DNA of 64,000 nt, taken from the NCBI GenBank assembly GCA_035936995.1, contig DASYVR010000053.1, positions 18,018 through 82,017 of the forward strand, in the 5' to 3' direction. This document shows positions 3,456-53,352 of the stretch, in pieces. Source of the DNA: Candidatus Dormiibacterota bacterium (lineage in GTDB: Bacteria > Chloroflexota > Dormibacteria > CF-121). The number at the start of each line of letters is the position of its first letter. The first letter of the stretch is position 1. The notes beneath the pieces are model-generated. The model did not search any database. It saw nothing but the letters and a program-made list of their open reading frames with translations, and had not been told where the DNA came from. A program made the position numbers and the translations under genes.

Positions 3456-5135
3456 CTAGGGGGCGGGGGCCAGGTCGGTGTAGTCGTTGATGATGACCTG
3501 GTGGCTACCGCTTGTGGAGGTATCAAGACCCCAGCTCTTCGAATACGGCGTACTCGTCTGCGAGAGCACATTGCCGGACGCATCCCTGGTGATGAAGGTG
3601 CTCGTTCCCTGCAAGCTGACCCCGACCAGCCGCGACGCCTGGCTGCTGAACTTCGGTAGGAAGAGGTTAAGGCTGACCTTGTCGAAGCTGTAGGTCTTCT
3701 GCATGATCTTTCCGGCGGCAATGTCCTGGTTCACGACGTCGACGAATTCCTTGAGTCCGTCGCCCGTGGCCCCAGTCCCTGCCAGCGTTAAGTCGTGGGC
3801 ACGACGTGCTTCAGATTCGATGATGAGGTCGAACACCACGTCATGTGCCATCGCCGCAGCGGTCCGCGGCGTCGACTGATCAAAGGCGACCACGTTCGAC
3901 GCGACCGTCACCGTCGGAATCGGCGGCAGGATCCACACCTGGGCCGAGGCGGAGGCCGGTCCCGAATTTCTTGGCGGCGGGAGGGCGGCGCCCGCAGAGC
4001 TGGAGACCCAGCCGGCGATGGCCGGCCCGTCACCGACGGTGAGCGCGAGGGTTGGCGTCGACCCATCGGCGAGCCCGGCGGCCGGCTCCGGGCTGTGGGT
4101 GGAAAGATCGGCCGCGACAGGAAGGGTCCCAACAAATATCAGCGCGATCGCGAGTGCAGCCGGCAGGCGCCAGCCCAGGCGACGCCTCCCAGCCCTCTGC
4201 CGGTCCCGGGCTTCGAGTGGGGACAGAAACCGCGCCAGCGCAAAGCGGAGTGCACAGGCGATAACGAGGCTTGCCAGTATCGCGGTCTTGGTCCAGAACT
4301 CAAGTGTGGTCGGGCCGATCAGCAGAACCGCCAGGATGGCCACGACAAGTCCGAACGCCACCCGCGCCACTGCGCCGTCGGGAACCGTCCTCGGGTCCGG
4401 GACCATGAAGAGACCGAACACCAGGAGTTCGGGCGAGGTGACCAGGATCTGCCAGAGTTCACGTCCGCACATTGGGGCCACGTGCCAGCTGGCGACCATG
4501 CAATGGTCGGGCACCAGGGCAAGCGCCACGGCCGTAAATGCCGCAAACCCAGCCATGAAGGCCAGCTCGAGACCGAGCAATCGCAGTTCCCACGCGATCA
4601 ACAGCCCCCCGACGAGCAGGACGGCGTAGGTCACAATCAGCCACGGCCCGGGCGGGATCCACCACAGATCCTGGGGCTCCGTGAGCTTGGGGCCTAGCGC
4701 GACGAAGGCGATGACCAGGCCAAGGTTCGAGGGGTTGAAGATGTGCCGCCCACGCCAGCGGATCAGGTACTTCGATGCCATCGAGATGGCGACCACACCG
4801 ACAAAAATCCAGATGCCATGCGTGCTCCACCATTGGCCGTGAAGGGTGCCGGGAGTTCGCAGGATGAAGGCGGTGCTGTTGCCGGTCAGCAATCCGCTCG
4901 CCGGCCACATAATGGCGCTGTCCTTGAAGAAGACGACGACGAACTCGATCAGGGCACCGGTCGCGAGACAGATGAGGATCTGCGCCACCGAGAGCCGGAA
5001 GCCGAGCACCGTCTGGCCCAGCACCTGGAGCGTCACCAGCACCGCAGCGACGTGCATCCGAGGATCGCGAAGGCTGGGGAAGATGACCGCGTATTCCCGG
5101 CCGAACAAGCGAACCTTCCGGCGCTTGGCGCTCAC
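3456..5135 (-). CDS. polytopic membrane protein, RnfD/NqrB-like N-terminal domain plus ~220-aa unassigned C-terminal domain
   Basis: 559 aa, high GC3. About 9 hydrophobic helices. Motifs HIFNPSNLGLV and FMVPDPRTVP resemble RnfD/NqrB FNPAL and FMATDP.T.P. The C-terminal third is hydrophilic with no recognisable family. Confidence 0.55.
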   Translation of the reverse strand: MSAKRRKVRLFGREYAVIFPSLRDPRMHVAAVLVTLQVLGQTVLGFRLSVAQILICLATGALIEFVVVFFKDSAIMWPASGLLTGNSTAFILRTPGTLHGQWWSTHGIWIFVGVVAISMASKYLIRWRGRHIFNPSNLGLVIAFVALGPKLTEPQDLWWIPPGPWLIVTYAVLLVGGLLIAWELRLLGLELAFMAGFAAFTAVALALVPDHCMVASWHVAPMCGRELWQILVTSPELLVFGLFMVPDPRTVPDGAVARVAFGLVVAILAVLLIGPTTLEFWTKTAILASLVIACALRFALARFLSPLEARDRQRAGRRRLGWRLPAALAIALIFVGTLPVAADLSTHSPEPAAGLADGSTPTLALTVGDGPAIAGWVSSSAGAALPPPRNSGPASASAQVWILPPIPTVTVASNVVAFDQSTPRTAAAMAHDVVFDLIIESEARRAHDLTLAGTGATGDGLKEFVDVVNQDIAAGKIMQKTYSFDKVSLNLFLPKFSSQASRLVGVSLQGTSTFITRDASGNVLSQTSTPYSKSWGLDTSTSGSHQVIINDYTDLAPAP

Positions 5136-5148
5136 CGTTGAGTAACGG

Positions 5149-6198
5149 TTGGAATGCTCAAGCCGTTACACCCTCAGGGCCTTGTTAGCATTTCGCTGCT
5201 TGTCACAGGCGTCGTACCGAGCATGGACCGGGTTGGTCGGAGCCGTTGTCGTCGCCGGCCTCTCGGCCTGTGATCTTCCGTTCGGTCTCGACCTGCCCAC
5301 CACGCGCAGCCTGGAGAGCGGCGCCACCGGCACCCTGGTCGCGGCCGACAGCTTCGAGATCACCGGTTCGTACAGCGAAGGAAGCAACCAGTGGTCGATC
5401 GACCTGCAGCTGAGCCGGCCGGGCGCCGAGCACGTCACTGTCACGACGTCCGATGTCAAGCTCGAGGCGATCACCCTTGGCAACGACGCCTATTTTCGCG
5501 GACAGCAGTTTCTGTCTGCGCACATGGGCAGCGATCTTGTCTCTCGCAGCTTTGTCAAGGCAGCGGGAAATGGTTGGTGGAAGGGCTCGGCCGGCCACGT
5601 CCCCCAGCTGACGGACCTAACCGATGGTAATGCCTTCAGGTCGACGTTCCTCGGGCAGGCGGTCACGCAGCGCACCGACCACGTGTCGGTGGATGGAACC
5701 GATGCGGTCCGCCTGTCGGGTGCACGGGGAGACGTCTTCATCACCGCGCAGGCGCCCTATCGGGTGCTGCGCGTGCGCCTGAAACACGGGGTTGTCGTTG
5801 ACGGCATTCGCGATGCCGACCTTCGGTTCTTCAATTACAACAGCGACTTCAGGATCTCGGCGCCTGCTGATGTGATTGATTTCTCGAATCTCAGCACGCT
5901 GCCGCCCATCTACACGGTCGTGTCGGTCGACGCCTCAGGATGCGGCTCGCCGTGCGTTATCTCGGCCCTGCTCAAGAATCTCGGCGGGCAACTCCATGCG
6001 CAGGCGCCATCCACCATCGCCTTCACCATGACGGACACGGCCTCTCGACAGGTGCTCGGAAGTTGCCAGACGCAGGTCGTGCCGGACGTCACGTACAACG
6101 CGACGACCACCGTGATGTGCTCGATCGATAACGTAACCGCCCAGCAGTCAAACGCGGCCACCGTGACAGCGACGCCGGACAACCCGGGACGCGGCTAG
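5149..6198 (+). CDS. putative lipoprotein, unknown function
   Basis: 349 aa. Signal peptide ending in lipobox VAGLSAC; SGAT motif at 5317-5328 shortly after the lipidated Cys. Start uncertain: TTG at 5149 is only 13 bp from the divergent neighbour, and later in-frame TTGs are possible. Confidence 0.6.
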   Translation: MECSSRYTLRALLAFRCLSQASYRAWTGLVGAVVVAGLSACDLPFGLDLPTTRSLESGATGTLVAADSFEITGSYSEGSNQWSIDLQLSRPGAEHVTVTTSDVKLEAITLGNDAYFRGQQFLSAHMGSDLVSRSFVKAAGNGWWKGSAGHVPQLTDLTDGNAFRSTFLGQAVTQRTDHVSVDGTDAVRLSGARGDVFITAQAPYRVLRVRLKHGVVVDGIRDADLRFFNYNSDFRISAPADVIDFSNLSTLPPIYTVVSVDASGCGSPCVISALLKNLGGQLHAQAPSTIAFTMTDTASRQVLGSCQTQVVPDVTYNATTTVMCSIDNVTAQQSNAATVTATPDNPGRG

Positions 6199-6202: not shown

Positions 6203-7060
6203 GTGACAAAGCTCGAGGTGGCCGCATGGGGCCTGACGATCGCTTTGTTAGGCAGCGAAGTCGGGCTCGCCGTGTTCCGGCCCTGGGACCATCACGTCGC
6301 CCTGTCGCTATCAGGCTCACACGCGTTGAGCCTCGGCCAGGCTAACGGCTCCCCGTCGCCGGGCGCGACCAAGCTGGTCACGCCCTCCGCCGGTGGCAAG
6401 TGTCCCGACGTCGTCGTCCGCAGGATCGAACAACCCCATACGATCCCGCGGAGCGCCTGGGTCCATGCCTCGGATGGCGTCAACGTCCGGACCGCCCCCT
6501 CGTCTTCGGCGACCCGCCTGACGACGCTGGCGACTGGAACGCAGTTGAACCTTCAGGGCGAACAGACCAATCCCGATGGCAGCACCTGGTATCGAATTCG
6601 GCTGAGCGACGGCCGGGACGGTTGGTTGAGCGGGCGCTATACGACCAACTACCCAATTGGCCTGGCCTCGACTGGCTCGCTAAAGATCTGGCTGCCTGTT
6701 GGCTATCAGTTCCAGTCGGTGGCATCGGGAAAGGCAGAGGCGCACTACAAGGACGGGCCGCTAGCGTTGTTGTATCTGGACAGTGGCGCCAAGGACCAGG
6801 CGCCGACGGAGACAGTGGTGCCGGCCGGCCTGCCCCGTCGATCCACGTGGACGGCGCGTTCCACCGAGCAGGCGCTTGTCGGCGACCTTCCCGCCACCGA
6901 CCGCGTGTTCAGTATCAGGCTGGCCGGCAGCGGCTGTCCGGCACTCCTCCACGAGGTAAGGATCGCGACGACCGCCAATTACTACGACTTCATCTTCCTG
7001 CTGGATGAGCCGAGCTCGTCAGTCGTTGCCCAGTTGCTGGACAGCGCCACCGTGCAGTAG
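6203..7060 (+). CDS. membrane-anchored SH3b-domain protein
   Basis: 285 aa. N-terminal TM (VAAWGLTIALLGSEVGLAVF), SH3b-like segment VNVRTAPSSSATRLTTLATGTQLNLQGEQTNPDGSTWYRIRLSDGRDGWLSGRY, and a C-terminal domain shared with 22499..23368. Confidence 0.7.
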   Translation: MTKLEVAAWGLTIALLGSEVGLAVFRPWDHHVALSLSGSHALSLGQANGSPSPGATKLVTPSAGGKCPDVVVRRIEQPHTIPRSAWVHASDGVNVRTAPSSSATRLTTLATGTQLNLQGEQTNPDGSTWYRIRLSDGRDGWLSGRYTTNYPIGLASTGSLKIWLPVGYQFQSVASGKAEAHYKDGPLALLYLDSGAKDQAPTETVVPAGLPRRSTWTARSTEQALVGDLPATDRVFSIRLAGSGCPALLHEVRIATTANYYDFIFLLDEPSSSVVAQLLDSATVQ

Positions 7061-7112
7061 AAGCCCGAGCCGCCGACGTCAGGCATCGGCCATTCGGCGA
7101 TACGGAGTACAG

Positions 7113-7706
7113 TCAGTCGCCCTCAGGTCGGCTGAGTACGCCGGGAACGCCGGCCGCATCGAACGACGGGTCGGGATGGATGTCGAAGGCATCGGCAAGG
7201 CGCACGAAGAGGTTGAAAAGCGCGCCGTCGTAGACGGCTTCGGCGATCTGCGCGTCGGTCCACCCGGCCTCGCGCAGCCGCTGGACCTGTTCATCGGTGA
7301 TGCGATACGCGTGCCGGGTTAGCGTTTCGACGAATTCCAAGAGCAGTCGGTGCTTCGGCGTCAGGTTGGCGGCGTTGAGATCCCCGTTACGCAGGGCCGC
7401 CGCAGCATGCGCGTACTCCTCACCCTGCAACTGCAGGAACCAGGCATGGCTGCTGAGTCAATAGTGGCAGCGGTTCAGCGCCGAGACGTAGGACGCGATC
7501 ATTTCGTGCTCGGCCCGGCTGAGCGCCCCGTCCGTGAAGTGCAATCGGCTCGCCTGATCGATGGCACGCAAAAAGTCCGGTCGTAGGCTCATCGTCCGCA
7601 GGATGTCGGGGACGTTTCCCCTCGCCGACGTTTGCTTCAACGCACGGTAAAGGTCGGCGATCTCACCGGTTGCGTCGCCGTCTTCGACCCACGCGATCCG
7701 AGCCAT
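7113..7706 (-). CDS. AhpD/carboxymuconolactone-decarboxylase-family peroxidase-related protein with in-frame TGA (candidate selenocysteine; otherwise a pseudogene)
   Basis: ORF-track pieces 7458..7706 and 7113..7430 are in one frame, separated only by TGA at 7458-7460. Read-through gives ...SYVSALNRCHY-TGA-LSSHAWFLQLQGEEY..., which places the TGA at the second Cys of the family C-x-x-C-x-x-x-H motif. Confidence 0.6.
7424..7437 (-). promoter_or_regulatory. SECIS-like stem-loop candidate
   Basis: mRNA CCUGC-AGUU-GCAGG begins 20 nt after the UGA. G and U in the tetraloop. Extendable by CCU/AGG across a small internal loop. Confidence 0.35.
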
Positions 7707-7736
7707 GATGTCGCAACGCCGTTTTGAAGACCCCGG

Positions 7737-8240
7737 TTACGGTTTGACCAGGCTCCAGCCGGTGTAGTTGCCGTTCGTGTCGCCTGGCTTGGTGTCGTTG
7801 TGGAAGAAATAGAGCGGCAAGCCCTTGTAGGTCACCTGCAGTGTCCCGTCGGTGCGCGTGATGGTCCCCAGTTGCCCGGTCACACCAGGACCGCCGGTTG
7901 GCGTCTGCCCACTGGCGATGGTCAACGCCGGCCATGTGCCACTACAACCGCCATGGCAGTTGCTTACGCCAGGGGTGTCACTGCCGAAGGTGTAGACGGT
8001 GTGGCTGTTTGATGCTGCAACCAGGAGCGTCCCCATCGTGCCCACACTCTGCGCCAGAACGACCGGTGCGGCCGTTGGTGCTGGGGTCGGCGTAGGGGTT
8101 GGGGTTGCCGTTGCCGAGGGTGAGGCCGATAGTGATGCGGTTGCGGCGGGACCACTGGTCTGGCCTCCGCATGCCGCGAGCACAATCGCGGAAAAAGCCA
8201 GGATTGCTGCCGTCCGGACCGCGGGGATAACCGTCGCCAT
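7737..8240 (-). CDS. lipoprotein with COG4315 / secreted-repeat (Lipoprotein_15-like) domain
   Basis: 167 aa. Lipobox LAACGG, TP-rich linker, then TLLVAASNSHTVYTFGSDTPGVSNCHGGCSGTWPAL...LPLYFFHNDTKPGDTNG. GGAGGAGG Shine-Dalgarno upstream. Confidence 0.8.
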   Translation of the reverse strand: MATVIPAVRTAAILAFSAIVLAACGGQTSGPAATASLSASPSATATPTPTPTPAPTAAPVVLAQSVGTMGTLLVAASNSHTVYTFGSDTPGVSNCHGGCSGTWPALTIASGQTPTGGPGVTGQLGTITRTDGTLQVTYKGLPLYFFHNDTKPGDTNGNYTGWSLVKP

Positions 8241-8340
8241 GATGTGAATCCTCCTCCGACAAGTGTCGCTGCTGATGGCTACGGGGGACCGTTACGGGGC
8301 CCACCCTGCCCTCCCCAGGGGGACTGACTCTGGGGCGTCT

Positions 8341-9012
8341 CTAGACCGTGTAGACCTCGACCTGTCCGCGCTCGATCCGCACACTCAATGAGGGCAGCCT
8401 GGGGAGGGGCGAGTTGTACTGGTCGCTTGGTTCCCCGTTCGTTTGGAAGGTGGCCCCATGACACGGGCACTCAAACTGGTTGCGGAACTTGCTGTAATTG
8501 AGGATGCACCCCATGTGGGTGCAGACCGCGGACAGGCCCTTGACGTCCTGTCCTTGCCGGACCAGAAAGCCCTCGATGGCGCCAGACCGGAAGGCAACGG
8601 GCGTGCCCTCGGGGAGGTCGGCGAGCGCCTTGACCGGTTTCCATGTCCCGCTCGACACCAGGGCCTGGTTGCTTCCCGGCGCCGGGCTCTTGGTCAAGCG
8701 GTCGAGACCGATGACTGCCGCCACACCGGCGGCAATGCCGGCCGCGCCCGTCAGCAGCAGCGAGCGGCGGCTCGGACGGACTCCCGGGTGCGGCCGGGCG
8801 GTCTGCTCTTGAACCCATTCCCCGATCGACCCCTGCATGCGCTCGAGGAATTCCTTCGACGGCAGGCCCGCGCCGGGTTTGGCGGCGCGGAGCATGGCGG
8901 CGGTCTGCCGGGCCCGCAGGGCGTCTTCGTCGGGCAATGGCGTCCGCTCGGGCCGGCGGTCCTGCAGCAGGTCCTCGACGTGCTGGTCGAGTTGCTCGGG
9001 ATCGTCGTTCAC
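8341..9012 (-). CDS. Rieske [2Fe-2S] domain membrane protein, sigma-factor-coupled (putative anti-sigma-like)
   Basis: 223 aa. ~80-aa acidic cytoplasmic N-terminus, then SRRSLLLTGAAGIAAGVAAVIG (twin-Arg-like motif plus TM). Rieske motifs CTHMGC and CPCHG. Start overlaps the sigma gene stop by 4 nt. Confidence 0.8.
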   Translation of the reverse strand: MNDDPEQLDQHVEDLLQDRRPERTPLPDEDALRARQTAAMLRAAKPGAGLPSKEFLERMQGSIGEWVQEQTARPHPGVRPSRRSLLLTGAAGIAAGVAAVIGLDRLTKSPAPGSNQALVSSGTWKPVKALADLPEGTPVAFRSGAIEGFLVRQGQDVKGLSAVCTHMGCILNYSKFRNQFECPCHGATFQTNGEPSDQYNSPLPRLPSLSVRIERGQVEVYTV

Positions 9013-9572
9013 GGCGTCCCCCCGCGTTCCCGGCCGGCGCGGTTGAGCGCCCGGAACTGCAACACCTTGACGTTCGTCTCGCTAAGGCTGAGCTCCTGGG
9101 CGGTCTCGCGCACCGAATAGCCGCGCAAGAAGCGGAGCTCGAGCACCCTCCGGTAACTCTCCGGGAGGGTGGCCAGCAGCGAATCGACGCGCTGCACCGC
9201 TTCCGGATTCTCCCGGGGCGCGGGCGGTCGGGTGATATCGTCTTCGAGCTCACTCGCGCCTTCCGCGTAGTACTCGCGCCAGTGATCGGCCAGTGTCGTC
9301 TGCGCCACCCGGTACAACCAGCTGCGCAGCTCGGGGACCGAGACATCGCTGCGCATGCCGTTGATCGCCTTCATGAACACCTGGGCGGTGAGGTCCTCGG
9401 CGTCCGGGCGGTTACCGACTCGGCTGTAGATGTACTGGTAAATGGCTGTGACATGTGTCTGGTAGGCCCAGGTCAGGTGATCCTGGCCATGCGGAGCGTC
9501 GGCGGGAGCCAGCGACACGATCTTCCCGGGGGAAGCGAACACCACGGCGCCGGTCGTCTCATCCTCACGCAT
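9009..9572 (-). CDS. ECF-type RNA polymerase sigma-70 family factor
   Basis: 187 aa. Region 2 (DAEDLTAQVFMKA...WLYRVAQTTLADHWRE) and region 4 HTH (YRRVLELRFLRGYSVRETAQELSLSETNVKVLQFRAL). TATAAC hexamer (9584-9589, minus) lies 11 nt upstream of the ATG. Confidence 0.9.
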   Translation of the reverse strand: MREDETTGAVVFASPGKIVSLAPADAPHGQDHLTWAYQTHVTAIYQYIYSRVGNRPDAEDLTAQVFMKAINGMRSDVSVPELRSWLYRVAQTTLADHWREYYAEGASELEDDITRPPAPRENPEAVQRVDSLLATLPESYRRVLELRFLRGYSVRETAQELSLSETNVKVLQFRALNRAGRERGGTP

Positions 9573-9684
9573 CCGCTTCCGCAGTTATATACCGACGGAG
9601 GTTACGTAGCGCGAACTCAGCGGCACAGCCGTTCAGAGCAGGGCGGATTTGGGAATACTGGAGAAGGTAAAGGGCTTAGATAAC

Positions 9685-10701
9685 ATGGGAGCTTCGCAAA
9701 CGATGGAGAAGGACCGCCGTTACGACGTCGTCATCATCGGCGGTGGGCCGGCCGGGCTGACCGCCGCGTTGTACGCCGGGCGGGCACGCGTCAAGACCCT
9801 GCTACTGGAGCGGGGCGCGCCCGGTGGCCAGCTGCTCAACACCGAGGCGATCGAGGATTATCCGGGCTTCGACCACATCACCGGCCCCGAGCTGGCCCAG
9901 CGCATGGCCGACCAGGCGGTCAAGTTCGGCGTCGAACTCCAGACCAGCCGCGTGACCGCCATCCGCCGCCGGGGCGACAAGAGGGTGGTCCAGACCGAGG
10001 ACGGCGAATATCTCGCGGATTACGTCATCCTCACCGCCGGCGGAGAGCCGTTAAAGCTTGGCATCCCGGGCGAGGGCGAGTTCCAAGGGCACGGCGTGTC
10101 GCAATGCGCGGTCTGTGACGGGGCCTTCTTCAAGCAAGAGGAGGTGGCCGTGGTGGGCGGTGGCGACGCCGCGCTGGAAGAGGGCGTATTCTTGACGCGC
10201 TTCGCGAAGAAGGTCTACATCATCCACCGGCGCGAGCAGTTTCGCGCCCAGGCGATCCTGGTGGAGGCGGCACGCAAGAACCCGCAGGTGGAGCTGATCA
10301 CCAACACCACCGTCACCGAGATCAAGGGCGAAGACGGGCAGGTGAAGGAGATCACGCTCAAGGATGTGCCCAGCGGCCAGACCCGGCCGCTGAAGGTCAC
10401 CGGCGTCTTCATCTTCATCGGCTTCCAGCCCAACGTCCAGTTCTTCGACCACCAGGAGCACGTCGAGCACGATCCACTCGGCTTCCTGATCACGGATTCG
10501 ACGATGCAGACGAGCCTGCCAGGGATCTATGCGGCCGGCGACGTGCGGTCCCAGCTGACGCGGCAGATCACGACCGCGGTCGGGGACGCGACCACCGCCG
10601 CCATCGATGCGGTCAAGAAGCTCGAGGCAAAGAAGCACGAGCTCGCGCCCGTGCCGGTCGATCTCTACGGCCCCACCCGGCCGGACCTCGTCGGCAGCTA
10701 G
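9685..10701 (+). CDS. trxB: thioredoxin-disulfide reductase
   Basis: YDVVIIGGGPAGLTAALYAGRA FAD motif, redox CAVCDG, NADPH motif VAVVGGGDAALEEG. Start ambiguous (TTG 9649, ATG 9685, ATG 9703). About 30-aa C-terminal extension. Confidence 0.93.
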   Translation: MGASQTMEKDRRYDVVIIGGGPAGLTAALYAGRARVKTLLLERGAPGGQLLNTEAIEDYPGFDHITGPELAQRMADQAVKFGVELQTSRVTAIRRRGDKRVVQTEDGEYLADYVILTAGGEPLKLGIPGEGEFQGHGVSQCAVCDGAFFKQEEVAVVGGGDAALEEGVFLTRFAKKVYIIHRREQFRAQAILVEAARKNPQVELITNTTVTEIKGEDGQVKEITLKDVPSGQTRPLKVTGVFIFIGFQPNVQFFDHQEHVEHDPLGFLITDSTMQTSLPGIYAAGDVRSQLTRQITTAVGDATTAAIDAVKKLEAKKHELAPVPVDLYGPTRPDLVGS

Positions 10702-12368: not shown

Positions 12369-12695
12369 GTGAACCTGATCGCCCTCATCAAGGAGCGCGC
12401 CAAGTACTACAACTGCCTCGCCTGCATGCAGGCGCTTGCCGATTGCCAGGTGAAGCTGCTCAATGAGGCGGACGGACAATGCACCGTTGAGGTCACCTGC
12501 GCCAACTGCGGCGTCAGCTTCGTCGCGGTGCTCCTGCTCAAAAAGGCGAAGCATCCAGATGGTTTGCCCGCGGCGGCCGGCCAGGGACCGATCAGCATGG
12601 ACGAGCTGCTCGACGTCCACGAGTACATGAAGGCCTTCAACGGCCCGATCAAGGAGCTTGCCCGCTGGCGTCCGTCCCGCCAGCAGACCTCCTAG
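12369..12695 (+). CDS. small Cys-rich (CxxC...CxxC) zinc-ribbon-like protein, unknown function
   Basis: 108 aa, strong GC3 bias in this frame. YNCLAC ... C ... C ... TCANCG. Immediately upstream of the cysteine desulfurase. Confidence 0.7.
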   Translation: MNLIALIKERAKYYNCLACMQALADCQVKLLNEADGQCTVEVTCANCGVSFVAVLLLKKAKHPDGLPAAAGQGPISMDELLDVHEYMKAFNGPIKELARWRPSRQQTS

Positions 12696-12712
12696 CGGCG
12701 CGTTACGCGCCA

Positions 12713-12718
12713 TAGAAT
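12713..12718 (+). promoter_or_regulatory. -10-like TAGAAT, leaderless start candidate
   Basis: TAGAAT ends 8 nt before ATG 12727 (MVYLDHSATTP, a canonical NifS/IscS N-terminus). Preceded by the GC hairpin GGCGCG-TTA-CGCGCC at 12697-12711. Confidence 0.4.
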
Positions 12719-12720
12719 TG

Positions 12721-13884
12721 ATGCCGATGGTGTATCTCGACCACTCGGCAACGACGCCACTCGACCCCGAGGTCCTGCAGGCGATGATGCCCTACCTCAC
12801 CGAAGAGTTCGGCAACGCCTCCAGCGTCTACGGGCTGGGTCAGCGCGCGCGCCAGGCGATCGATCAGGCGCGAGACGACGTGGCCGCCTTCTATGGCGTC
12901 GCGGCGAAGGAGGTGATCTTCACCTCCGGCGGCACCGAGGGCGACAACCTCGCCTTCCGCGGGATCGCCGAACGGAACGCCGACCGCGGCCGCCATGTCA
13001 TCACCTCCACCATCGAGCACGATGCGGTGCTTCGCTCCGCCGCGGCGCTGGAACGGGACGGTTTCCAAGTCACGCGGCTGCGCGTCGACCGTTTCGGCCT
13101 GGTCGATCCGCAGGCGCTCCGCGAAGCGCTGCGGCCCGACACGATCCTGGTCAGCATCATGCACGCCAACAATGAGATCGGCACCATCGAGCCGATCCGT
13201 GAACTGGTCGGGGTGACTCGCGAGCGCAGCGACGCCTACTTCCACACCGACGCCGTGCAGTCGACCGGAAAGATCCCCACCCGCGTCGATGAGCTCGGTG
13301 TCGACCTCCTGTCCATGTCGGCGCACAAGCTCCATGGCCCCAAAGGCGTGGGCGGCCTGATGGTACGCTCCGGCGTGCGACTGGAGCCGCAGCTGCTGGG
13401 CGGCGGGCACGAGCGCAACCGCCGGGCCGGCACGGAAAACGTGGCCGGTATCGTGGGGCTGGCGAAGGCCGTCGGCATCGCCCAGCGCGACATGCAGAAG
13501 AACATGGCGCATCTCACCGGCCTCCGCGATCGCCTGATCGAGGGCGTCCTCGACCGGATCCCTCGCGCGGAGCTCACCGGACATCCGCAACAGCGCCTGC
13601 CACATCACGCCAGCTTTTTGTTCCAGGGCGTTGAAGGCGAGTCGCTGCTGCTCCAGCTCGACATGGAGGGTATCGCGGCGTCATCGGGATCGGCGTGCAC
13701 CTCGGGCTCGTTGGAACCGAGCCATGTCATCCTGGCGCTCGGCTATCCGCGGGAACGGGCGCTGGGCAGCCTGCGACTATCGGTTGGCAAGGGCAACACC
13801 GACGCCGACATCGACCTGGTCCTTGATCGCCTGCCAGCCATGGTGGGCCGGCTGCGTGCGATGGCCCCCATTTCCGCCGCCTGA
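12721..13884 (+). CDS. cysteine desulfurase (NifS/IscS class V aminotransferase)
   Basis: YLDHSATTPLDPEV..., PLP-Lys motif SMSAHKLHGPKGVGGL, active-site loop SSGSACTSG. Start ATG 12721 or, if leaderless, ATG 12727; the track start 12658 is an upstream extension. Confidence 0.93.
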   Translation: MPMVYLDHSATTPLDPEVLQAMMPYLTEEFGNASSVYGLGQRARQAIDQARDDVAAFYGVAAKEVIFTSGGTEGDNLAFRGIAERNADRGRHVITSTIEHDAVLRSAAALERDGFQVTRLRVDRFGLVDPQALREALRPDTILVSIMHANNEIGTIEPIRELVGVTRERSDAYFHTDAVQSTGKIPTRVDELGVDLLSMSAHKLHGPKGVGGLMVRSGVRLEPQLLGGGHERNRRAGTENVAGIVGLAKAVGIAQRDMQKNMAHLTGLRDRLIEGVLDRIPRAELTGHPQQRLPHHASFLFQGVEGESLLLQLDMEGIAASSGSACTSGSLEPSHVILALGYPRERALGSLRLSVGKGNTDADIDLVLDRLPAMVGRLRAMAPISAA

Positions 13885-13893
13885 GGCGTAGTC

Positions 13894-14268
13894 ATGCCGG
13901 AAACGTTCTACAGCGTCGCTGATGCCAACGCGCTCGTCCCCAAGCTCAAGCCCGTGCTGGAGCGCATCCGAAAAACCCAGGAGACACTGGCTCAGGACAA
14001 GACCGTGGCTGCAATGCGGGAAAAGGCCGCGCAGAACGGCGGCGGCCTGCCGGGGCGCCACGTGTCAGAGCTGACGAAAACGCTTGACCGCGACCTGCGC
14101 CAGCTGCAGGAGTGGGGAATCGTGCTTCGCGATCCGAGCATCGGCTTGATCGATTTCTTTCACCAGCGCGAGGGCGAGACCGTGTTCCTCTGTTGGAAGC
14201 TGGGCGAGGCCAGGGTGGAATGGTGGCATCCACTCGAGACGGGCATCGCCGGCCGCCAGCATCTTTAG
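13894..14268 (+). CDS. DUF2203-family protein
   Basis: 124 aa. FYSVADANALVPKLKPVLERIR ... GIVLRDPSIGLIDFFHQREGETVFLCWKLGE ... WWH pattern of DUF2203. Confidence 0.75.
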   Translation: MPETFYSVADANALVPKLKPVLERIRKTQETLAQDKTVAAMREKAAQNGGGLPGRHVSELTKTLDRDLRQLQEWGIVLRDPSIGLIDFFHQREGETVFLCWKLGEARVEWWHPLETGIAGRQHL

Positions 14269-42932: not shown

Positions 42933-43175
42933 TCCATCGTCGCCGTTCGGTCACCGCGCGGTCAACTTCAAATCAGAACGAGGAGGCCGCGAACCGGCAG
43001 CAAAGCGGCTGCGACCGCTTGACGGGTTGTCGGTGAGGGCGCCCTGTGCTACGGTTGTCCAGAATCTTAGCCACCCTGGCCTGAACCCAAACTTACGATC
43101 CAGCCAAAGCCAGTCAACCCGCTGAAGCGCTTCCAGCTTCCCCTGATTGTCCTCACCCTCGTCTTCTGTTACGGG

Positions 43176-44102
43176 GTGATCGGCTACATGGTGCTGCTGC
43201 ACTGGAACTTCCTCGACTCCTTGTTCATGGTGCTCATCACCGTGACCACCATCGGCTATGAGGAGGTTCACCCGCTCGGCAACCTCGGGCGGGTCTTCAC
43301 CATGACGGTCATCGTCCTGGGCGTTGGCACCATGCTCTACACGCTCGGCATCTTCGCGGAAACGTTGATCGAAGGACATCTCGGCCGGTACGCTAGGATG
43401 CGCGGCATGGAACGCCGGATCGCCGGCCTCAACGATCACTTCATCGTCTGCGGGTACGGCCGGATGGGGACGCGGGTCGCCCAGGAGTTTCGGCAGCTGG
43501 ACACGCCCTTCGTGATCGTCGAGAGTAACCCGGAGCCGCTCGAGCGGTTGCGCTCGTCCGACCTGCTGTACGTGGAGGGCGACGCCGCCTCGGACGAGTC
43601 CTTGCTCAAAGCCGGCATCCTGCGCGCCAAAGGGTTGGTCACCGCTGTCGACTCCGACGAGCGCAACGTCTTCATCACTCTGACGGCGCGGTCTTTGAAT
43701 CCGGCGCTCTTGATCGTCGCCCGGTCCTCCTACCAGGACTCGACCGAGAAGCTTCGTCGCGCCGGCGCCAACCAGGTGGTCTCCCCTTACCTCATGGGCG
43801 CCCACCGGATGGCAGCGCTGGCGGTTCGACCGGTGGCGGTCGACGTCCTCGACACCGTGCTCCACGGCGAGAACATCGACCTCGTCGTCGAGGAGTTGCT
43901 GGTTTTGCCCAGCTCCAAGGTGCTGGGTCGGACACTGGCCGACTCGGGGATCCGGGAGGCCGGCGCCAACGTCCTGGCCATCCGCAAGCGGAGCGGGCAG
44001 CTTCGGATCAACCCGCCCGAGACCCAGGTGCTGGAAAGCGACGACCTGCTGGTCGCCATTGGAACGCGCCAGCAAATGAGCGCCGCCGAACGGCTGCTCT
44101 GA
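43176..44102 (+). CDS. two-TM K+-channel-like protein with RCK (TrkA-N/TrkA-C) domains; atypical TTIGYEE filter; true start probably upstream
   Basis: Pore helix plus filter LFMVLITVTTIGYEEVHP; TrkA-N IVCGYGRMGTRVAQEF. The frame is open back to 43071 and encodes the missing half of TM1 (KRFQLPLIVLTLVFCYG), but contains no ATG/GTG/TTG before 43176. Confidence 0.8.
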   Translation: MIGYMVLLHWNFLDSLFMVLITVTTIGYEEVHPLGNLGRVFTMTVIVLGVGTMLYTLGIFAETLIEGHLGRYARMRGMERRIAGLNDHFIVCGYGRMGTRVAQEFRQLDTPFVIVESNPEPLERLRSSDLLYVEGDAASDESLLKAGILRAKGLVTAVDSDERNVFITLTARSLNPALLIVARSSYQDSTEKLRRAGANQVVSPYLMGAHRMAALAVRPVAVDVLDTVLHGENIDLVVEELLVLPSSKVLGRTLADSGIREAGANVLAIRKRSGQLRINPPETQVLESDDLLVAIGTRQQMSAAERLL

Positions 44103-44117
44103 GGCGCGTTCGGGTCG

Positions 44118-49064: not shown

Positions 49065-49402
49065 CGGGAGGGCCGCCTCCCCGACCCTGAGCCTCCCCCA
49101 GAGGGAGAGGGAACTCCAGGCCCCGCCTGGCGGAAGCGGATCTCACGCACCGCGGGGACGCCAATCCCCTCGTTCAGCCGGTCGATCAGCATGCCCCGCT
49201 CAAGATGGAGTTGATGCGCCAGCGCCGGGCTGGTGGCGGTCACCCACAGGGTGCCGCCGGTCAGCTTGAGCGCGCTGGTCTCGCGGGCGAGGTGGGGCCC
49301 GACCACCTGCGGCCACAGCCAAAGCGCCTGCGCCTCGCGCGTCCGGCGGGAGATGCCGAGCGACTTCAGCGCGCGCGGCAGCGCCGCCCCGATGCTACGC
49401 AT
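49061..49402 (-). CDS. dciA: DUF721/DciA-family protein (putative replicative-helicase loader)
   Basis: 113 aa. ALPRALKSLGISRRTREAQALWLWPQVVGPHLARETSALKLTGGTLWVTATSPALAHQLHLERGMLIDRLNE...VREIRFRQ matches the DUF721 pattern. 8-nt overlap with recF. Confidence 0.8.
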   Translation of the reverse strand: MRSIGAALPRALKSLGISRRTREAQALWLWPQVVGPHLARETSALKLTGGTLWVTATSPALAHQLHLERGMLIDRLNEGIGVPAVREIRFRQAGPGVPSPSGGGSGSGRRPSR

Positions 49403-50540
49403 GAATCGCTCCCTCCTCGACGTGGAAGACCGCGGCCCGTTCCAGGATGCTCTTGGGCAGGTCGTTCAGGTCGGCGGCCGTGATCAGCGCCTGTGGCCCG
49501 GGCTCGAGGGCGGCCAGGAGACGCTCGCGGCGAGCGGGGTCGAGCTCGGACATCACGTCATCGAGTAAGAGGACCGGTTGCTCGCCGGTCACCTCGGCGA
49601 GGTAGTGCAGTTCCGCCAGCTTCAGGCTCAGCACCGCGCTGCGCTGCTGCCCCTGGCTGGCGAAGAGCCTGGCCTCGTGGTCATCGAGCCACACTTCAAC
49701 ATCGTCACGCTGCGGTCCGACAGCTGTCTGTCCACGTCCGATCTCCTCGTCGCGGGCGTCGCGCATGGCCGCTTTGAGCTGCTCGGTAACGAGCTCCTGC
49801 GGCGCCTCGCCGATCCGGGCGCCGGCCGGGCGGTAGCGCAGTTCCAGCCGCTCGCGGTCGTCGCTCAGCTCCCGATGGAAGGCGGCGGCGATCGGCTGTA
49901 AGTCGAGCAGGCGGCGCTGCCGTTCGACCATGATGGACGCCCCCGACTCGGCCAGGGCGGTGGTCCAGTAGTCCAGGCCACCGATGGGCTGGCGGCCTTC
50001 GCGAATCGCCCGCAGCAGAGCATTGCGCTGCTCCAGCAGATGGCCGTAGCGGGTCAACTCCCGAGCATGCCCGGCATCGATCTGCGAGAGCAGGGTATTG
50101 AGAAAACGGCGCCGGCCCTCGCCCGACCCTTTGACCAGCTGAAGGTCATCGGGCCAGAAGAGGACAACCCGAAGTGACCCGATCATGTCCGTCGATCGTC
50201 GCTGGATGCCGTTGAGCGTGAATCGGCGGGATGTCCGCGAGCTGTTGCCACCGGCGCCGTTTCCCCCGGGAGCGACGGCGATCCGCACCTCGAGCTGGTC
50301 GCGGCCGGTCTCGGTCTGGACCCCGCAGGTCACGCGGGCCGCCAGTTGGCCGAAGCGCACCAATTCCGTCGCTTGTTGCGTCCGCGGCGACCGAGTCAGC
50401 GCTAACAGGGCGACCGCCTCGAGGAGGTTGGTCTTCCCCTGCGCGTTGCCACCGAAGAAGACGGTGGCCGAACGCTCCAGCGCCAACTCGAGCTCGGGGT
50501 AATTTCGAAAATCGAAGAGTGAGACGTCAGCCAGGAACAC
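49395..50540 (-). CDS. recF: DNA replication and repair protein RecF
   Basis: 381 aa. FRNY...FFGGNAQGKTNLLEAV Walker A, ...SQGQQRSAVLSLKLAE signature, LLLDDVMSELD Walker B. Confidence 0.95.
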   Translation of the reverse strand: MFLADVSLFDFRNYPELELALERSATVFFGGNAQGKTNLLEAVALLALTRSPRTQQATELVRFGQLAARVTCGVQTETGRDQLEVRIAVAPGGNGAGGNSSRTSRRFTLNGIQRRSTDMIGSLRVVLFWPDDLQLVKGSGEGRRRFLNTLLSQIDAGHARELTRYGHLLEQRNALLRAIREGRQPIGGLDYWTTALAESGASIMVERQRRLLDLQPIAAAFHRELSDDRERLELRYRPAGARIGEAPQELVTEQLKAAMRDARDEEIGRGQTAVGPQRDDVEVWLDDHEARLFASQGQQRSAVLSLKLAELHYLAEVTGEQPVLLLDDVMSELDPARRERLLAALEPGPQALITAADLNDLPKSILERAAVFHVEEGAIHA

Positions 50541-50558: not shown

Positions 50559-51674
50559 CTACATCGCCACTCTGACCGGCATGATGATGTAGAGGTAGTT
50601 GTCCTTTCCCACCGGCTTGATCAGGCCAGGATTGAGAGGACCGGTGAAGCCAAGCTGCACCTCTTCGCTCCCGATGATGGCGAGCACTTCGAGGAGATAT
50701 TTAGAGTTGAAGGCCACCTGGAGGTCCTGGCCGTCGATCTTGGCGTCCACGCCGGCGACGTTCTGCCCAACCTCACTGGTGTTAGCCGTGAGCGTTAACT
50801 TGCCGCCCTCCGCCTTGAACTTGATGACATTGGCGGCATCCTTCGAGAAGAGCGACACCATCTTGGTCGTGAAGAGCAGTTCTTGTGTCTTGGCCGTGAT
50901 GGTGGTCGTGCTCTGCGCGGGAATGACCTGCTGGTAATTGGGATAGGTGCCTTCGATCAACCGGCTCATCAGCTCGACATCCCGGGTTTTGAAAAAGACC
51001 TGGTTCTTCTGCGAGCCTACGGTAACTTCAATGCCGTCGTCACCTGTCTTGAGGATACGGCTGAGCTCGCTGAGCGCCCGCGCCGGGATGACGATCGTCT
51101 CGCCCTCGCCTGGCTCAGCCTCGACCGCCAGGGTTTTGACCGCCAGCCGATGGCCATCCGTGGCGGCGAAGGTCGCCTTGCCGCCGTTCAAATGGACATA
51201 GACGCCGGTGAGCACCGGCCGGCCCTCATCGCTTGAGGCCGCGATCACGGTCTGCTCGATCGCATCCTTGAGCTCGGCCGAGTCGACTCTGACCTTGCGG
51301 CCGTCGACGCCAGAGGGGACCGGGGGGAAATCGGCCGGGTCGATGCCCCGGATGTTGGCGTCGAACCGATTGCTCTTGACCGCCAGGGATTGCGTCTTCT
51401 TGTCGAGCGTCATGGAGAGCGGCTCGTCCGGGTGGGAGGTAACGAAGTCCGTCAGCAGGCGCGCCGGTACGGTGATCCCGCCTTCTTCCTGGACCTCGGC
51501 GGGGATGACCTGACGAATCCCGATCTCGAGGTTGGTCGCGGTTAGCTGCAAGCCGGTGTCGGCTGTCTGCAGCAGGACATTGTTGAGGATGGGCAAGGTG
51601 GTCCGGGATGAGACAGCGCGCGATACAACCTGCAACCCCTGACCGAGGTTTCCGGCGGTGACTGTGACCTTCAT
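50559..51674 (-). CDS. dnaN: DNA polymerase III subunit beta
   Basis: 371 aa. Three-domain sliding clamp (MKVTVTAGNLGQGLQVVSRAVSSRTTLPILNNVLL...). AAGGAG Shine-Dalgarno. Confidence 0.97.
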   Translation of the reverse strand: MKVTVTAGNLGQGLQVVSRAVSSRTTLPILNNVLLQTADTGLQLTATNLEIGIRQVIPAEVQEEGGITVPARLLTDFVTSHPDEPLSMTLDKKTQSLAVKSNRFDANIRGIDPADFPPVPSGVDGRKVRVDSAELKDAIEQTVIAASSDEGRPVLTGVYVHLNGGKATFAATDGHRLAVKTLAVEAEPGEGETIVIPARALSELSRILKTGDDGIEVTVGSQKNQVFFKTRDVELMSRLIEGTYPNYQQVIPAQSTTTITAKTQELLFTTKMVSLFSKDAANVIKFKAEGGKLTLTANTSEVGQNVAGVDAKIDGQDLQVAFNSKYLLEVLAIIGSEEVQLGFTGPLNPGLIKPVGKDNYLYIIMPVRVAM

Positions 51675-51887: not shown

Positions 51888-53243
51888 CTAGTGGGAATAA
51901 AGGAGCTCGCGGATTTTCCGCAGGTCGGACTGCAGCCTCTGGTCCTCGCGCGACTCGGTGTTGATCTTCTCGTAGGAGTGAAGGACGGTGGTATGGTCTC
52001 TCCCCCCGAAGGCCTGGCCGATCGCCGGCAGTGACGACGCCGTCTCCTCGCGGATCAAGAACATCGCCACCTGCCGCGGAAAGACAATGTGCTTATCCCG
52101 GCGCTTGCCCTTCATCTCCTCAAGGCTGATGTGATAGAAGTTCGCGACGGCGCGCGAGATCGTATCAATGGAAAGGGTTCGCGTGTCGGCCGAGGGAATG
52201 ACGTCCTGCAGCAGCTTCGCCGCCATGTCGACGTTGACCGCGCTGCGGTTCAGCGAAGCATGCGCGATCACCCGGATCAGCGCACCCTCCAGCTCGCGGA
52301 TGTTCCTCTGAATCTTGTGAGCGATGAAGGAAAGCACGTCCTCCGGCACCAGCCGCGCATAGGGCCCCACCTTTGACTTCAAGATAGCGACCCTGGTTTC
52401 AAAGTCGGCCGGCTGAATATCGGCGATCAGCCCCCACTGGAACCGTGAGCGCAACCGATCTTCGAGCGTAGGTATTTCTTTGGGTGGCCGGTCGGACGAA
52501 ATCACAATTTGCCGATTGAGCTCGTGGAGCGAGTTGAAGGTATGGAAGAACTCCTCCTGGGTCCGATCCTTGCCGGCGAGGAACTGGATGTCGTCGACCA
52601 GCAAGACATCGACCGTCCGGTACCGGGTGCGGAAGTCATTCATCCGCCCTTCCTGGATCGAGGAGATCATCTCGTTCATGAACTTCTCGCTGGTCACGTA
52701 GGCGACCCGCCGGCGGTGGTGCTTTTCCAGCACGGCGTGGCCGATGGCATGCATCAGATGAGTCTTGCCCAAGCCGACGCCTCCATAAAGGAACAGCGGA
52801 TTGTAGGCCTTGGCGGGTGTTTCCGCCACCGCCCGGCAGGCGGCATGGGCGAAGCGCGAATTGTTGCCCACCACGAAATGCTGGAACTGGAATTTCGGAT
52901 TGAGCTGCGAGGCCTCGTGGAGGACCGGATCCTCCTCCTCCGGAGGCGGCTCTTCGGCGACCGCCACGGCGGCGCCTCCGCGCTGGACCTCGGGCTGGCC
53001 CGGCACCACTTCGAAGGCAACGCTGACATCGCCGGAGACGATCGCCGATAGCGTTTCCTTGATCATGGCGGAGTAGCGATCCTCGAGCCAGTCCTTGGCA
53101 AGCTTGGTCGGCACACCGATTTTGAAGGCATTCTTCTCGCGGCCGACGAGCGACGCATTCTTCAGCCAGGTCTCGTAGCTCGGCTTACTGAGCTGGAACC
53201 GAAGTTCCTCCTGCGCCGCCTGCCAGATCTGCTCTCCGTTCAT
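51888..53243 (-). CDS. dnaA: chromosomal replication initiator protein DnaA
   Basis: Start at ATG 53243 (MNGEQIWQAAQEELR..., GGAGGAG Shine-Dalgarno) rather than the track start 53327. AAA+ GGVGLGKTHLMHAIG, ...LLVDDIQFL. C-terminal DNA-binding domain ...HTTVLHSYEKI. Confidence 0.97.
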   Translation of the reverse strand: MNGEQIWQAAQEELRFQLSKPSYETWLKNASLVGREKNAFKIGVPTKLAKDWLEDRYSAMIKETLSAIVSGDVSVAFEVVPGQPEVQRGGAAVAVAEEPPPEEEDPVLHEASQLNPKFQFQHFVVGNNSRFAHAACRAVAETPAKAYNPLFLYGGVGLGKTHLMHAIGHAVLEKHHRRRVAYVTSEKFMNEMISSIQEGRMNDFRTRYRTVDVLLVDDIQFLAGKDRTQEEFFHTFNSLHELNRQIVISSDRPPKEIPTLEDRLRSRFQWGLIADIQPADFETRVAILKSKVGPYARLVPEDVLSFIAHKIQRNIRELEGALIRVIAHASLNRSAVNVDMAAKLLQDVIPSADTRTLSIDTISRAVANFYHISLEEMKGKRRDKHIVFPRQVAMFLIREETASSLPAIGQAFGGRDHTTVLHSYEKINTESREDQRLQSDLRKIRELLYSH

Positions 53244-53352
53244 ACGCTCCTCCACACGCGCGACTGTTTCGTTGGAGAGCAGAGCCGGTACTGCGCGGGC
53301 GGCCGCGCGGACGGAAACGAGGCCCATGGACGGCGTTTAGCGAGGACGGGAC

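What the first reader, a model, noticed from the sequence alone, without database searches (positions are those of the whole stretch)
7113..7706. In-frame TGA at the CxxC redox site of an AhpD/CMD-family gene: candidate selenocysteine (C-H-Y-U) with a SECIS-like hairpin
The ORF track splits one gene into 7458..7706 and 7113..7430. Both pieces are in the same frame, separated only by TGA at 7458-7460 (minus strand). The apparent M at 7430 is an internal TTG Leu. Read-through gives ...EMIASYVSALNRCHY-[TGA]-LSSHAWFLQLQGEEYAHAAAALRNG.... The TGA therefore sits exactly where the carboxymuconolactone-decarboxylase/AhpD family has the second Cys of its C-x-x-C-x-x-x-H motif. Twenty nt downstream the mRNA can form CCUGC-AGUU-GCAGG (7424-7437) with G and U in the loop, extendable by CCU/AGG. 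That distance range fits a bacterial SECIS. AhpD-like proteins are a recognised bacterial selenoprotein family. Automated annotation would call this locus two fragments or a pseudogene.
Basis: partly seen in the sequence, partly recalled or inferred. Interest (0 to 1): 0.7.

Follow-up and report, generated by a model that had tools for sequence, protein, structure and literature searches.

The report
Selenocysteine codon in AhpD-like peroxidase gene

Summary

- **The gene.** A single minus-strand gene (7706..7113, 197 codons) carries an in-frame TGA at 7460..7458, inside the motif C-H-Y-[TGA]-L-S-S-H.
- **Family.** The read-through protein matches TIGR01926 (peroxidase-related AhpD-like enzyme) above its curated cutoff.
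- **Comparative evidence.** 54 related genomic loci could be read at this column. 49 carry TGA there, never TAA or TAG, and 5 carry TGC (Cys).
- **Translation across the TGA.** dN/dS is about 0.05-0.2 on both sides of the TGA, so the downstream half is translated in frame.
- **The hairpin.** Nineteen nt after the TGA lies a 6-bp hairpin, UCCUGC-AGUU-GCAGGG (7438..7423). Its codons show almost no synonymous change, against a mean codon entropy of 1.17 bits elsewhere in the gene. It shows compensatory changes, it decays in Cys forms, and it meets every published criterion for a bacterial selenocysteine insertion (SECIS) element.
- **Prior knowledge.** AhpD-like CxxU selenoproteins (COG2128/TIGR01926) have been catalogued since 2005, so this is a correctly recognised member of a known family, here in a Dormibacterota-like genome.
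- **Not testable here.** The selenocysteine machinery (selA/B/D, tRNA-Sec) could not be checked. It is absent from the 64-kb window, and the rest of the genome was not available.

The parts
7113..7706 (-). Complete AhpD-like (TIGR01926, CMD-fold) selenoprotein gene. It has 197 codons, counting the Sec codon and excluding the terminal stop. ATG start at 7706..7704; terminal stop TGA at 7115..7113.
   Evidence: Translation. TIGR01926 scores 104.1 bits against a cutoff of 81.8. PF02627 scores 48 bits against a cutoff of 23. dN/dS is 0.05-0.2 on both halves.
7458..7460 (-). In-frame UGA, codon 83, inferred to encode selenocysteine (U83).
   Evidence: TGA in the window and in 49 of 54 readable related loci; TGC (Cys) in the other 5; never TAA or TAG. 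The column is Cys in all full-length database homologues and in PDB relatives.
7446..7469 (-). Redox motif C80-H-Y-U83-L-S-S-H87 (CxxUxxxH).
   Evidence: C80 is invariant in 43 Sec forms. H87 is invariant. The motif aligns with CxxCxxxH of 3c1l and 2prr.
7423..7438 (-). SECIS hairpin inside the coding sequence: 6-bp stem UCCUGC/GCAGGG with apical loop AGUU (7432..7429). There are 19 nt between the UGA and the stem, and 25 nt between the UGA and the loop.
   Evidence: RNAalifold consensus. 95.6% of cells paired, and 2 pairs with compensatory change. Energy is -8.4 kcal/mol. Codon entropy is about 0 at codons +7..+11, against a mean of 1.17 bits in 78 other conserved columns. The hairpin meets the criteria quoted.
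7737..9572 (-). Upstream co-directional genes, a possible operon (context only): ECF sigma factor 9572..9009, Rieske-domain protein 9012..8341, Lipoprotein_15-repeat protein 8240..7737. The gap to the AhpD-like gene is 30 nt.
   Evidence: Pfam. The order is conserved in the closest relatives L001, L004, L006, L007, L011, L048 and L049; L005 has it without the Lipoprotein_15 match. It is absent from L002, L003, L009 and L013.
9649..10701 (+). Divergently transcribed thioredoxin-reductase-like flavoprotein with a CAVC motif. It is a candidate source of reducing power (inference only).
   Evidence: Pyr_redox_2, E = 6.5e-55. The sequence contains ...SQCAVCDG.... Conserved next to the sigma factor gene in the closest relatives.

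Best explanation
The locus is one gene for an AhpD-like (TIGR01926, carboxymuconolactone-decarboxylase fold) thiol/selenol oxidoreductase.

Codon 83, UGA, is decoded as selenocysteine, giving a C80-x-x-U83-x-x-x-H87 redox centre.

**Inferred decoding.** While the ribosome sits at the UGA, the 6-bp/AGUU hairpin 19 nt downstream, which lies inside the coding sequence, recruits SelB-GTP-Sec-tRNA(Sec). Sec is then inserted instead of termination.

**Inferred chemistry, by analogy with AhpD-type proteins.** The selenolate of U83 is the attacking nucleophile on a peroxide or on an oxidised peroxiredoxin-type partner. C80 resolves the intermediate as a selenenylsulfide. A thioredoxin-type or other reductant then regenerates the centre.

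**Shown here:** a single reading frame, Sec/Cys pairing at the column, translation of the downstream half, RNA-level constraint on the hairpin, and family membership.

**Inferred:** actual selenium insertion, dependence on SelB, and the substrate and reductant.
For: 1. **Sec/Cys pairing.** TGA sits at the identical column in the window and in 49 of 54 readable loci. These loci carry labels from many phyla: Dormibacterota, Chloroflexota, Acidobacteriota, Latescibacterota, Actinomycetota, Planctomycetota, Armatimonadota and Rokubacteria. The other 5 have TGC, and none has TAA or TAG. All full-length database homologues have Cys there.
2. **Translation through the TGA.** Codons +1..+4 (L-S-S-H) and the whole C-terminal half keep their amino acids while their codons vary. 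dN/dS against 17 relatives is 0.05-0.16 upstream and 0.06-0.20 downstream.
3. **SECIS conservation.** Codons +7..+11 (TTC CTG CAG TTG CAG) have codon entropies of 0, 0.16, 0, 0 and 0.16 bits. The mean in 78 other conserved columns is 1.17 bits. The rare Leu codon TTG is used in 43 of 43 sequences.
4. **Compensatory change.** The only two substitutions in the hairpin codons lie in one sequence (L031). They are compensatory, C-G to U-A.
5. **Independent structure prediction.** RNAalifold predicts exactly this hairpin.
6. **Link to the UGA.** Sec forms that share only 41-51% protein identity keep the hairpin nucleotides unchanged. Cys forms break a pair (L041, L044, L045), lack the hairpin (L055), or vary the LQLQ peptide.
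7. **Fit to the bacterial SECIS model.** The loop is 4 nt with G at position 2 followed by U. The stem is 6 bp. The spacing is 25 nt. The energy is -8.4 kcal/mol.
8. **Family.** The protein passes the TIGR01926 cutoff. A 2026 review lists 'AhpD-like protein, TIGR01926, CxxU' as a selenoprotein family, first reported in 2005.
9. **TGA is otherwise an ordinary stop in this genome.** Many Pfam-confirmed genes in the window end in TGA, including this gene itself.
Against: - No selA, selB, selD or tRNA-Sec is present in the 64-kb window or in the flanks of the 56 related loci. The rest of the genome could not be searched.
- No Rfam family matches the hairpin.
- The hairpin is short, and the 71-nt region as a whole is not more stable than shuffled sequence (z = +0.97).
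- Column-wise covariation rests on few sequences, because the hairpin is nearly invariant.
- No experimental evidence of selenium incorporation exists for this protein.
Confidence: 0.9

Rival explanations
1. Pseudogene or sequencing error: a nonsense mutation, or a miscalled base, has turned a Cys codon (TGC/TGT) into TGA, and the gene is dead or mis-sequenced.
For: TGC to TGA is a single-base change. One relative (L049) has a 125-nt frameshifting deletion in its copy. The Sec machinery was not found in the window.
Against: The same TGA is present in 49 independently assembled genomes. dN/dS downstream of the TGA is 0.06-0.20, the same as upstream. The downstream frame is intact to a normal stop.
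Confidence: 0.02
2. Split gene: the two ORFs are translated separately, as an 82-aa N-terminal piece and a C-terminal piece of about 105 aa started at an internal codon, and they assemble into one enzyme.
For: Gene callers produce exactly these two products. A TTG lies 10 codons after the TGA.
Against: Codons +1..+9 (LSSHAWFLQ), which include the invariant His of the CxxCxxxH motif, lie between the TGA and the first possible start. They are conserved at the amino-acid level with synonymous variation. The TTG is an internal Leu in full-length Cys homologues. The catalytic residue itself would be missing.
Confidence: 0.02
3. UGA is read through without selenocysteine, either by genome-wide reassignment (UGA = Trp or Gly) or by SECIS-independent near-cognate suppression that inserts Cys or Trp.
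For: The UGA is followed by C in all but three Sec forms. From general knowledge, not tested here, UGA-C is a weak termination context. The Sec machinery is unverified.
Against: TGA ends a large share of the confirmed genes in the window, so it is not reassigned. The hairpin's nucleotide-level conservation is tied to the presence of TGA and relaxes in Cys forms. That is what a SECIS predicts and what plain leakiness does not. The family is a documented selenoprotein family.
Confidence: 0.04
4. The hairpin is only a by-product of a conserved L-Q-L-Q peptide and codon bias, not a functional RNA element. Under this rival the gene could still be a selenoprotein using another signal.
For: CTG and CAG are the preferred codons in this GC-rich genome. 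The stem is short. The region is not unusually stable.
Against: The second Leu is TTG in 43 of 43 sequences, although TTG is rare at other Leu columns (1-3 of about 41). The peptide varies freely in Cys forms: FLQSQ, FLELE, LLREQ, LLARL. One sequence shows a compensatory double change (L031). L053 and L056 carry hairpins of different sequence in the same region.
Confidence: 0.03

Closest known systems
AhpD-like protein selenoprotein family (COG2128 / TIGR01926, CxxU motif), first reported from the Sargasso Sea metagenome in 2005 and listed in later selenoproteome surveys
   Same: Same HMM family: TIGR01926 passes its cutoff. Same CxxU motif with Sec at the second position. Cys homologues are widespread. 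A bacterial SECIS with G in the apical loop lies downstream of the UGA.
   Different: Nothing in kind. This copy sits in a Dormibacterota-like soil genome. No paper in the searchable library links that phylum with selenocysteine. In the sampled clade the Sec form is the majority, 49 of 54 loci.
DR1765, the AhpD-like protein of Deinococcus radiodurans (PDB 6k40), and the structural-genomics relatives 3c1l, 2prr and 2oyo
   Same: Clear sequence homologues, E = 5.5e-20 to 6.6e-17 over nearly full length, with the CxxCxxxH motif at the same column. Loss of DR1765 increases H2O2 sensitivity, and the CxxC cysteines matter (PMC8945050).
   Different: These proteins have Cys, not Sec, at the second position. 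Identity is modest. No partner or substrate is known for either protein.
Mycobacterium tuberculosis AhpD (TIGR00777), which reduces AhpC
   Same: Same CMD/AhpD core fold and CxxC-type redox motif: TIGR00778 core domain, 40.2 bits against a cutoff of 27.8.
   Different: It fails the TIGR00777 model, 20.4 bits against a cutoff of 191.95. No ahpC is seen next to it. It carries Sec instead of Cys.
Escherichia coli fdhF-type bacterial SECIS (SelB-binding hairpin immediately downstream of UGA)
   Same: An in-ORF hairpin, G-U in a small apical loop, and spacing within the 16-37 nt window of the consensus model.
   Different: A different sequence, a shorter stem (6 bp), and no conserved lower stem enclosing the UGA. 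No Rfam model matches.

Membership tests
AhpD-like selenoprotein family (TIGR01926 / COG2128, CxxU) | Protein matches the TIGR01926 peroxidase-related model above its curated cutoff | tested here: met
   104.1 bits against a cutoff of 81.8, residues 4-180 on profile positions 3-177 of 178, with Cys substituted at position 83.
AhpD-like selenoprotein family (TIGR01926 / COG2128, CxxU) | CMD/AhpD core domain (PF02627, TIGR00778) | tested here: met
   PF02627 scores 48 bits against 23. TIGR00778 scores 40.2 against 27.8. PDB relatives 3c1l, 2prr, 2oyo and 6k40 match.
AhpD-like selenoprotein family (TIGR01926 / COG2128, CxxU) | In-frame UGA at the second position of the CxxC(xxxH) redox motif | tested here: met
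   C80-H-Y-TGA-L-S-S-H87. The column aligns with Cys in homologues.
AhpD-like selenoprotein family (TIGR01926 / COG2128, CxxU) | Cys-containing homologues at the Sec column, with conservation on both sides of the UGA | tested here: met
   5 TGC loci and more than 20 full-length Cys proteins. dN/dS is 0.05-0.2 on both sides.
AhpD-like selenoprotein family (TIGR01926 / COG2128, CxxU) | Bacterial SECIS downstream of the UGA: loop of 3-9 nt with G in its first two positions, stem of 4-16 bp, 16-37 nt spacing, MFE of -7.5 kcal/mol or lower | tested here: met
   Loop AGUU, 6-bp stem, 25-nt spacing, -8.4 kcal/mol. Criteria are quoted. Synonymous-site freezing and compensatory change support it.
AhpD-like selenoprotein family (TIGR01926 / COG2128, CxxU) | Sec-decoding machinery (selA, selB, selD, tRNA-Sec) in the same genome | not testable with these tools
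   None in the 64-kb window or in the 56 related loci.
AhpD-like selenoprotein family (TIGR01926 / COG2128, CxxU) | Selenium actually incorporated at the UGA | not testable with these tools
   Needs 75Se labelling or mass spectrometry.
NF041238 AhpD_rel_CFYUT (alkylhydroperoxidase-related selenoprotein) | Match above the curated cutoff | tested here: not met
   71.1 bits against a cutoff of 175. Only the C-terminal half of that 357-position profile is matched.
Canonical AhpD (TIGR00777) | Match above the curated cutoff | tested here: not met
   20.4 bits against a cutoff of 191.95.
Rfam RNA families (any curated SECIS model) | Covariance-model match at the hairpin | tested here: not met
   No match at gathering score in the window. 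Only chance-level hits at E up to 10 in 7350..7500.

The most novel reading that the evidence does not exclude
The most novel reading the evidence leaves open has three linked parts.

- Dormibacterota, a soil phylum for which I found no literature link to selenocysteine, would be a Sec-decoding phylum.
- In this AhpD-like clade the Sec form would be the ancestral and dominant state.
- The gene and its SECIS, identical at the nucleotide level in genomes labelled as several different phyla, would have spread laterally as one cassette. Pseudonocardiaceae would then have converted Sec to Cys secondarily, leaving a relic hairpin.
Probability: 0.4. Interest if true: 0.3.

Novelty: new member of a known kind. 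Interest (0 to 1): 0.22.

Why it matters
**Annotation.** This gene and dozens of relatives are recorded in public databases as two fragments or as hypothetical proteins. Joining them restores an active-site residue.

**Physiology.** The call implies that this Dormibacterota-like lineage needs selenium and carries the Sec machinery. That is a testable prediction for a phylum known mostly from metagenomes.

**The RNA element.** The family offers a very clean, minimal SECIS (6 bp, AGUU loop) with natural Sec-to-Cys revertants. These could serve SECIS modelling.

None of this changes what is known about selenoproteins in general.

Tried and rejected
- **Exact look-up of the 82-aa N-terminal product** in the assembly index: not on record. 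The source contig could therefore not be identified.
- **tRNA-Sec:** ARAGORN found no tRNA at all in the window, and only one tRNA-His in the 56 loci.
- **selA/selB/selD:** tblastn with the E. coli proteins against the window and all loci found nothing. Pfam on 40 window genes also found none.
- **A second selenoprotein gene in the window**, which would have shown the Sec trait. A scan for TGA flanked by coding-like sequence on both sides returned only this gene, antisense shadows, and neighbouring gene pairs that merely share a frame.
- **Rfam:** no hit at gathering threshold or at permissive thresholds.
It is not conserved in the alignment, and the 71-nt fold is no better than shuffled sequence. 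Rejected.
- **Promoter and terminator scan** around the gene: nothing above chance.
- **Literature** linking Dormibacterota to selenocysteine: none found.

Full report
**Observation.** Reading the minus strand of 6900..7900 and translating 7706..7113 gives one frame of 197 codons, interrupted once:

MARIAWVEDG...EMIASYVSALNRCHY*LSSHAWFLQLQGEEYAHAAAALRNG...SRPEGD*

The internal stop is TGA at 7460..7458. Both pieces have coding-type composition, with GC3 of 0.78 and 0.80. The hairpin CCUGC-AGUU-GCAGG lies at 7437..7424 and extends by a U.G pair to 7438..7423.

**Family.** With Cys substituted at position 83, the protein matches three models above their cutoffs:

- Pfam PF02627 (CMD): 48 bits against a cutoff of 23.
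- NCBIfam TIGR01926 'peroxidase-related enzyme': 104.1 bits against a cutoff of 81.8, over essentially the whole profile.
- The AhpD core domain TIGR00778.

It fails canonical AhpD (TIGR00777) and the CFYUT selenoprotein model NF041238. Against PDB sequences it matches 3c1l, 2prr, 2oyo and 6k40 (DR1765 of Deinococcus radiodurans), with E from 5.5e-20 to 6.6e-17. In the two best alignments (3c1l and 2prr), the Cys substituted at position 83 is matched to the second Cys of N-x-C-x-Y-C-x-x-H.

**Comparative evidence that the TGA is decoded.**

A protein-database search returned about 25 full-length homologues, all with Cys at this column. It also returned a much larger number of 108-113-aa C-terminal fragments that begin just after it. 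This is what gene callers produce when they stop at a conserved TGA. One such contig shows an 82-aa call directly followed by a 108-aa call.

A scan of one genome per species gave 56 loci. Their records carry labels from Dormibacterota, Chloroflexota (including Thermomicrobiales), Acidobacteriota, Latescibacterota, Actinomycetota, Planctomycetota, Armatimonadota and Rokubacteria. Of these, 54 could be read in frame at this column:

| Codon at the column | Loci | Which |
|---|---|---|
| TGA | 49 | most lineages |
| TGC (Cys) | 5 | four Pseudonocardiaceae, one Phycisphaerae |
| TAA or TAG | 0 | none |

Downstream of the TGA the amino acids stay conserved while codons vary. Codons +1 to +4 (L-S-S-H) use 3, 4, 5 and 2 different codons. 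Nei-Gojobori dN/dS between the window and 17 relatives is 0.05-0.16 for codons 1-82 and 0.06-0.20 for codons 84-180. The C-terminal half is therefore translated in this frame, starting before any possible internal start codon. This excludes a pseudogene and a split gene.

TGA is otherwise a normal stop in this genome. Many Pfam-confirmed genes in the window end in TGA, as does this gene itself. This excludes codon reassignment.

**The SECIS.**

- *Frozen codons.* In 43 Sec-form sequences, codons +7 to +11 (TTC CTG CAG TTG CAG) have codon entropies of 0, 0.16, 0, 0 and 0.16 bits. In 78 other columns with conserved amino acids the mean is 1.17 bits, and only one column is at zero.
- *Rare codon.* The Leu at +10 is TTG in 43 of 43 sequences. 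Other Leu columns use TTG in 1-3 of about 41 sequences.
- *Compensatory change.* The only two substitutions in the hairpin codons occur together in L031. They convert a C-G pair to U-A.
- *Independent prediction.* RNAalifold on 19 diverse sequences predicts exactly one structure, the 6-bp stem with a 4-nt loop. In it, 95.6% of cells are paired, against 32-65% when the partner is slid.
- *Distant relatives.* Sec forms at 41-51% protein identity (L050-L052) keep the 14 core nucleotides unchanged. L053 and L056 have hairpins of different sequence in the same region.
- *Cys forms.* L041, L044 and L045 break one pair. L055 has no hairpin. The LQLQ peptide varies freely (FLQSQ, FLELE, LLREQ, LLARL) in Cys-form proteins. 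The constraint is therefore tied to the UGA.

The element satisfies each criterion of the published bacterial SECIS model, as quoted from PMC13188914:

| Criterion | Model | This hairpin |
|---|---|---|
| Apical loop length | 3-9 nt | 4 nt (AGUU) |
| G in first two loop positions | required | G at position 2, followed by U |
| Stem | 4-16 bp | 6 bp |
| Spacing, UGA to loop | 16-37 nt | 25 nt |
| Energy | -7.5 kcal/mol or lower | -8.4 kcal/mol |

No Rfam model matches.

**What could not be shown.**

- The window holds no tRNA.
- It holds no selA, selB or selD, by Pfam on 40 genes or by tblastn with the E. coli proteins.
- The flanks of the 56 loci contain none either.
- The window holds no second TGA-interrupted coding candidate.
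Whether this organism has the Sec machinery therefore remains an inference from the comparative pattern.

**Organism and context.** Flanking proteins are 73-97% identical and syntenic with contigs labelled Candidatus Dormiibacterota (L001 and others).

The gene lies 30 nt downstream of a co-directional run of three genes: an ECF sigma factor, a Rieske-domain protein and a Lipoprotein_15-repeat protein. A thioredoxin-reductase-like gene is transcribed divergently. This arrangement is kept in the closest relatives, though not in all of them. It is compatible with a stress-regulated redox module but does not prove one.

**Mechanism.** The steps below are inferred from established knowledge of SelB-dependent decoding and of AhpD-type CxxC proteins.

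1. The hairpin recruits SelB with Sec-tRNA(Sec) to the UGA.
2. U83 acts as the nucleophile.
3. C80 resolves the intermediate as a selenenylsulfide.
4. A thioredoxin-type system recycles the centre.

Two observations fit U83 being the essential residue. The second position of the motif is conserved in all homologues. The first position is Thr, Asn or Tyr in several Cys-form homologues.

The nearest studied relative is DR1765. It protects against H2O2 in a manner that depends on its CxxC cysteines (PMC8945050).

**Comparison with what is known.**

- AhpD-like proteins with a CxxU motif were reported as a new selenoprotein family from the Sargasso Sea in 2005: COG2128, 27 sequences, with predicted SECIS (PMC1088965).
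- They were among the most abundant selenoprotein families in the GOS survey (PMC2398784).
- They occur in sequenced genomes (PMC1794560).
- A 2026 review lists 'AhpD-like protein, TIGR01926, CxxU' (PMC13188914).
- A 2026 database has a page for the family (PMC13326102).

The present gene meets every sequence-level criterion of that family. It is a new member of a known kind. I found no paper that connects Dormibacterota with selenocysteine, which is the only modestly new point.

**Verdict.** Confidence that this is a genuine Sec codon with a functional SECIS is about 0.9. Interest is low, because the family, the motif and the mechanism are already catalogued. The value lies in correcting annotation and in predicting Sec use in this lineage.

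Noticed in passing
L049:3001-3480: One relative (MAG CF_152) has a 125-nt frameshifting deletion in the N-terminal half of its AhpD-like gene. It keeps the TGA and the hairpin. It is either a recent pseudogene or an assembly artefact.
   Followed up: partly
L033, L041, L044, L045 (Pseudonocardiaceae), about 25 nt after the TGC codon: Cys-form genes still carry the hairpin nucleotides, including the rare TTG Leu codon. L033 has an intact stem with loop AGUC. The others have a single broken pair. This looks like a relic SECIS left by a Sec-to-Cys conversion.
   Followed up: partly
Proteins P0005, P0010, P0013, P0014, P0017, P0018, P0023, P0043 (alignment A1): Several full-length Cys-form homologues lack the first Cys of the CxxC motif, having T, N or Y instead. 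They always keep the second Cys, the one replaced by Sec here. This suggests a one-cysteine mechanism is viable in this clade.
   Followed up: no
window 7457 and the equivalent base in the related loci: The base after the Sec UGA is C in all but three Sec-form loci (A in L050 and L051, G in L056).
   Followed up: no
window 49395-53327 (minus strand): dnaA (51888..53327), dnaN (50559..51674) and a recF-like gene (49395..50540) lie in a row. The window probably includes the chromosomal replication origin region.
   Followed up: no
window 45243-46112 (minus strand): A gene with an integrase core domain (rve, rve_3). It is probably an insertion-sequence transposase and lies next to a UvrD/PD-(D/E)XK helicase-nuclease gene.
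   Followed up: no
window 3456-5135 (minus strand) and 5149-6198 (plus strand): A 559-aa predicted membrane protein and a 349-aa protein have no Pfam match. Both stay near the AhpD-like gene across Dormibacterota loci. Weaker matches to the membrane protein (43-45% identity) also occur in two Actinomycetota loci (L038, L043). Orientation varies, so an operon is unlikely.
   Followed up: partly
window 12658-14268 and 43071-45242 (plus strand): Two pairs of neighbouring genes share a frame and are separated only by TGA: cysteine desulfurase with a small protein, and a TrkA-type channel with a glycosyltransferase-like protein. They resemble the finding superficially. They are ordinary adjacent genes, each with its own start and unrelated content.
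   Followed up: yes
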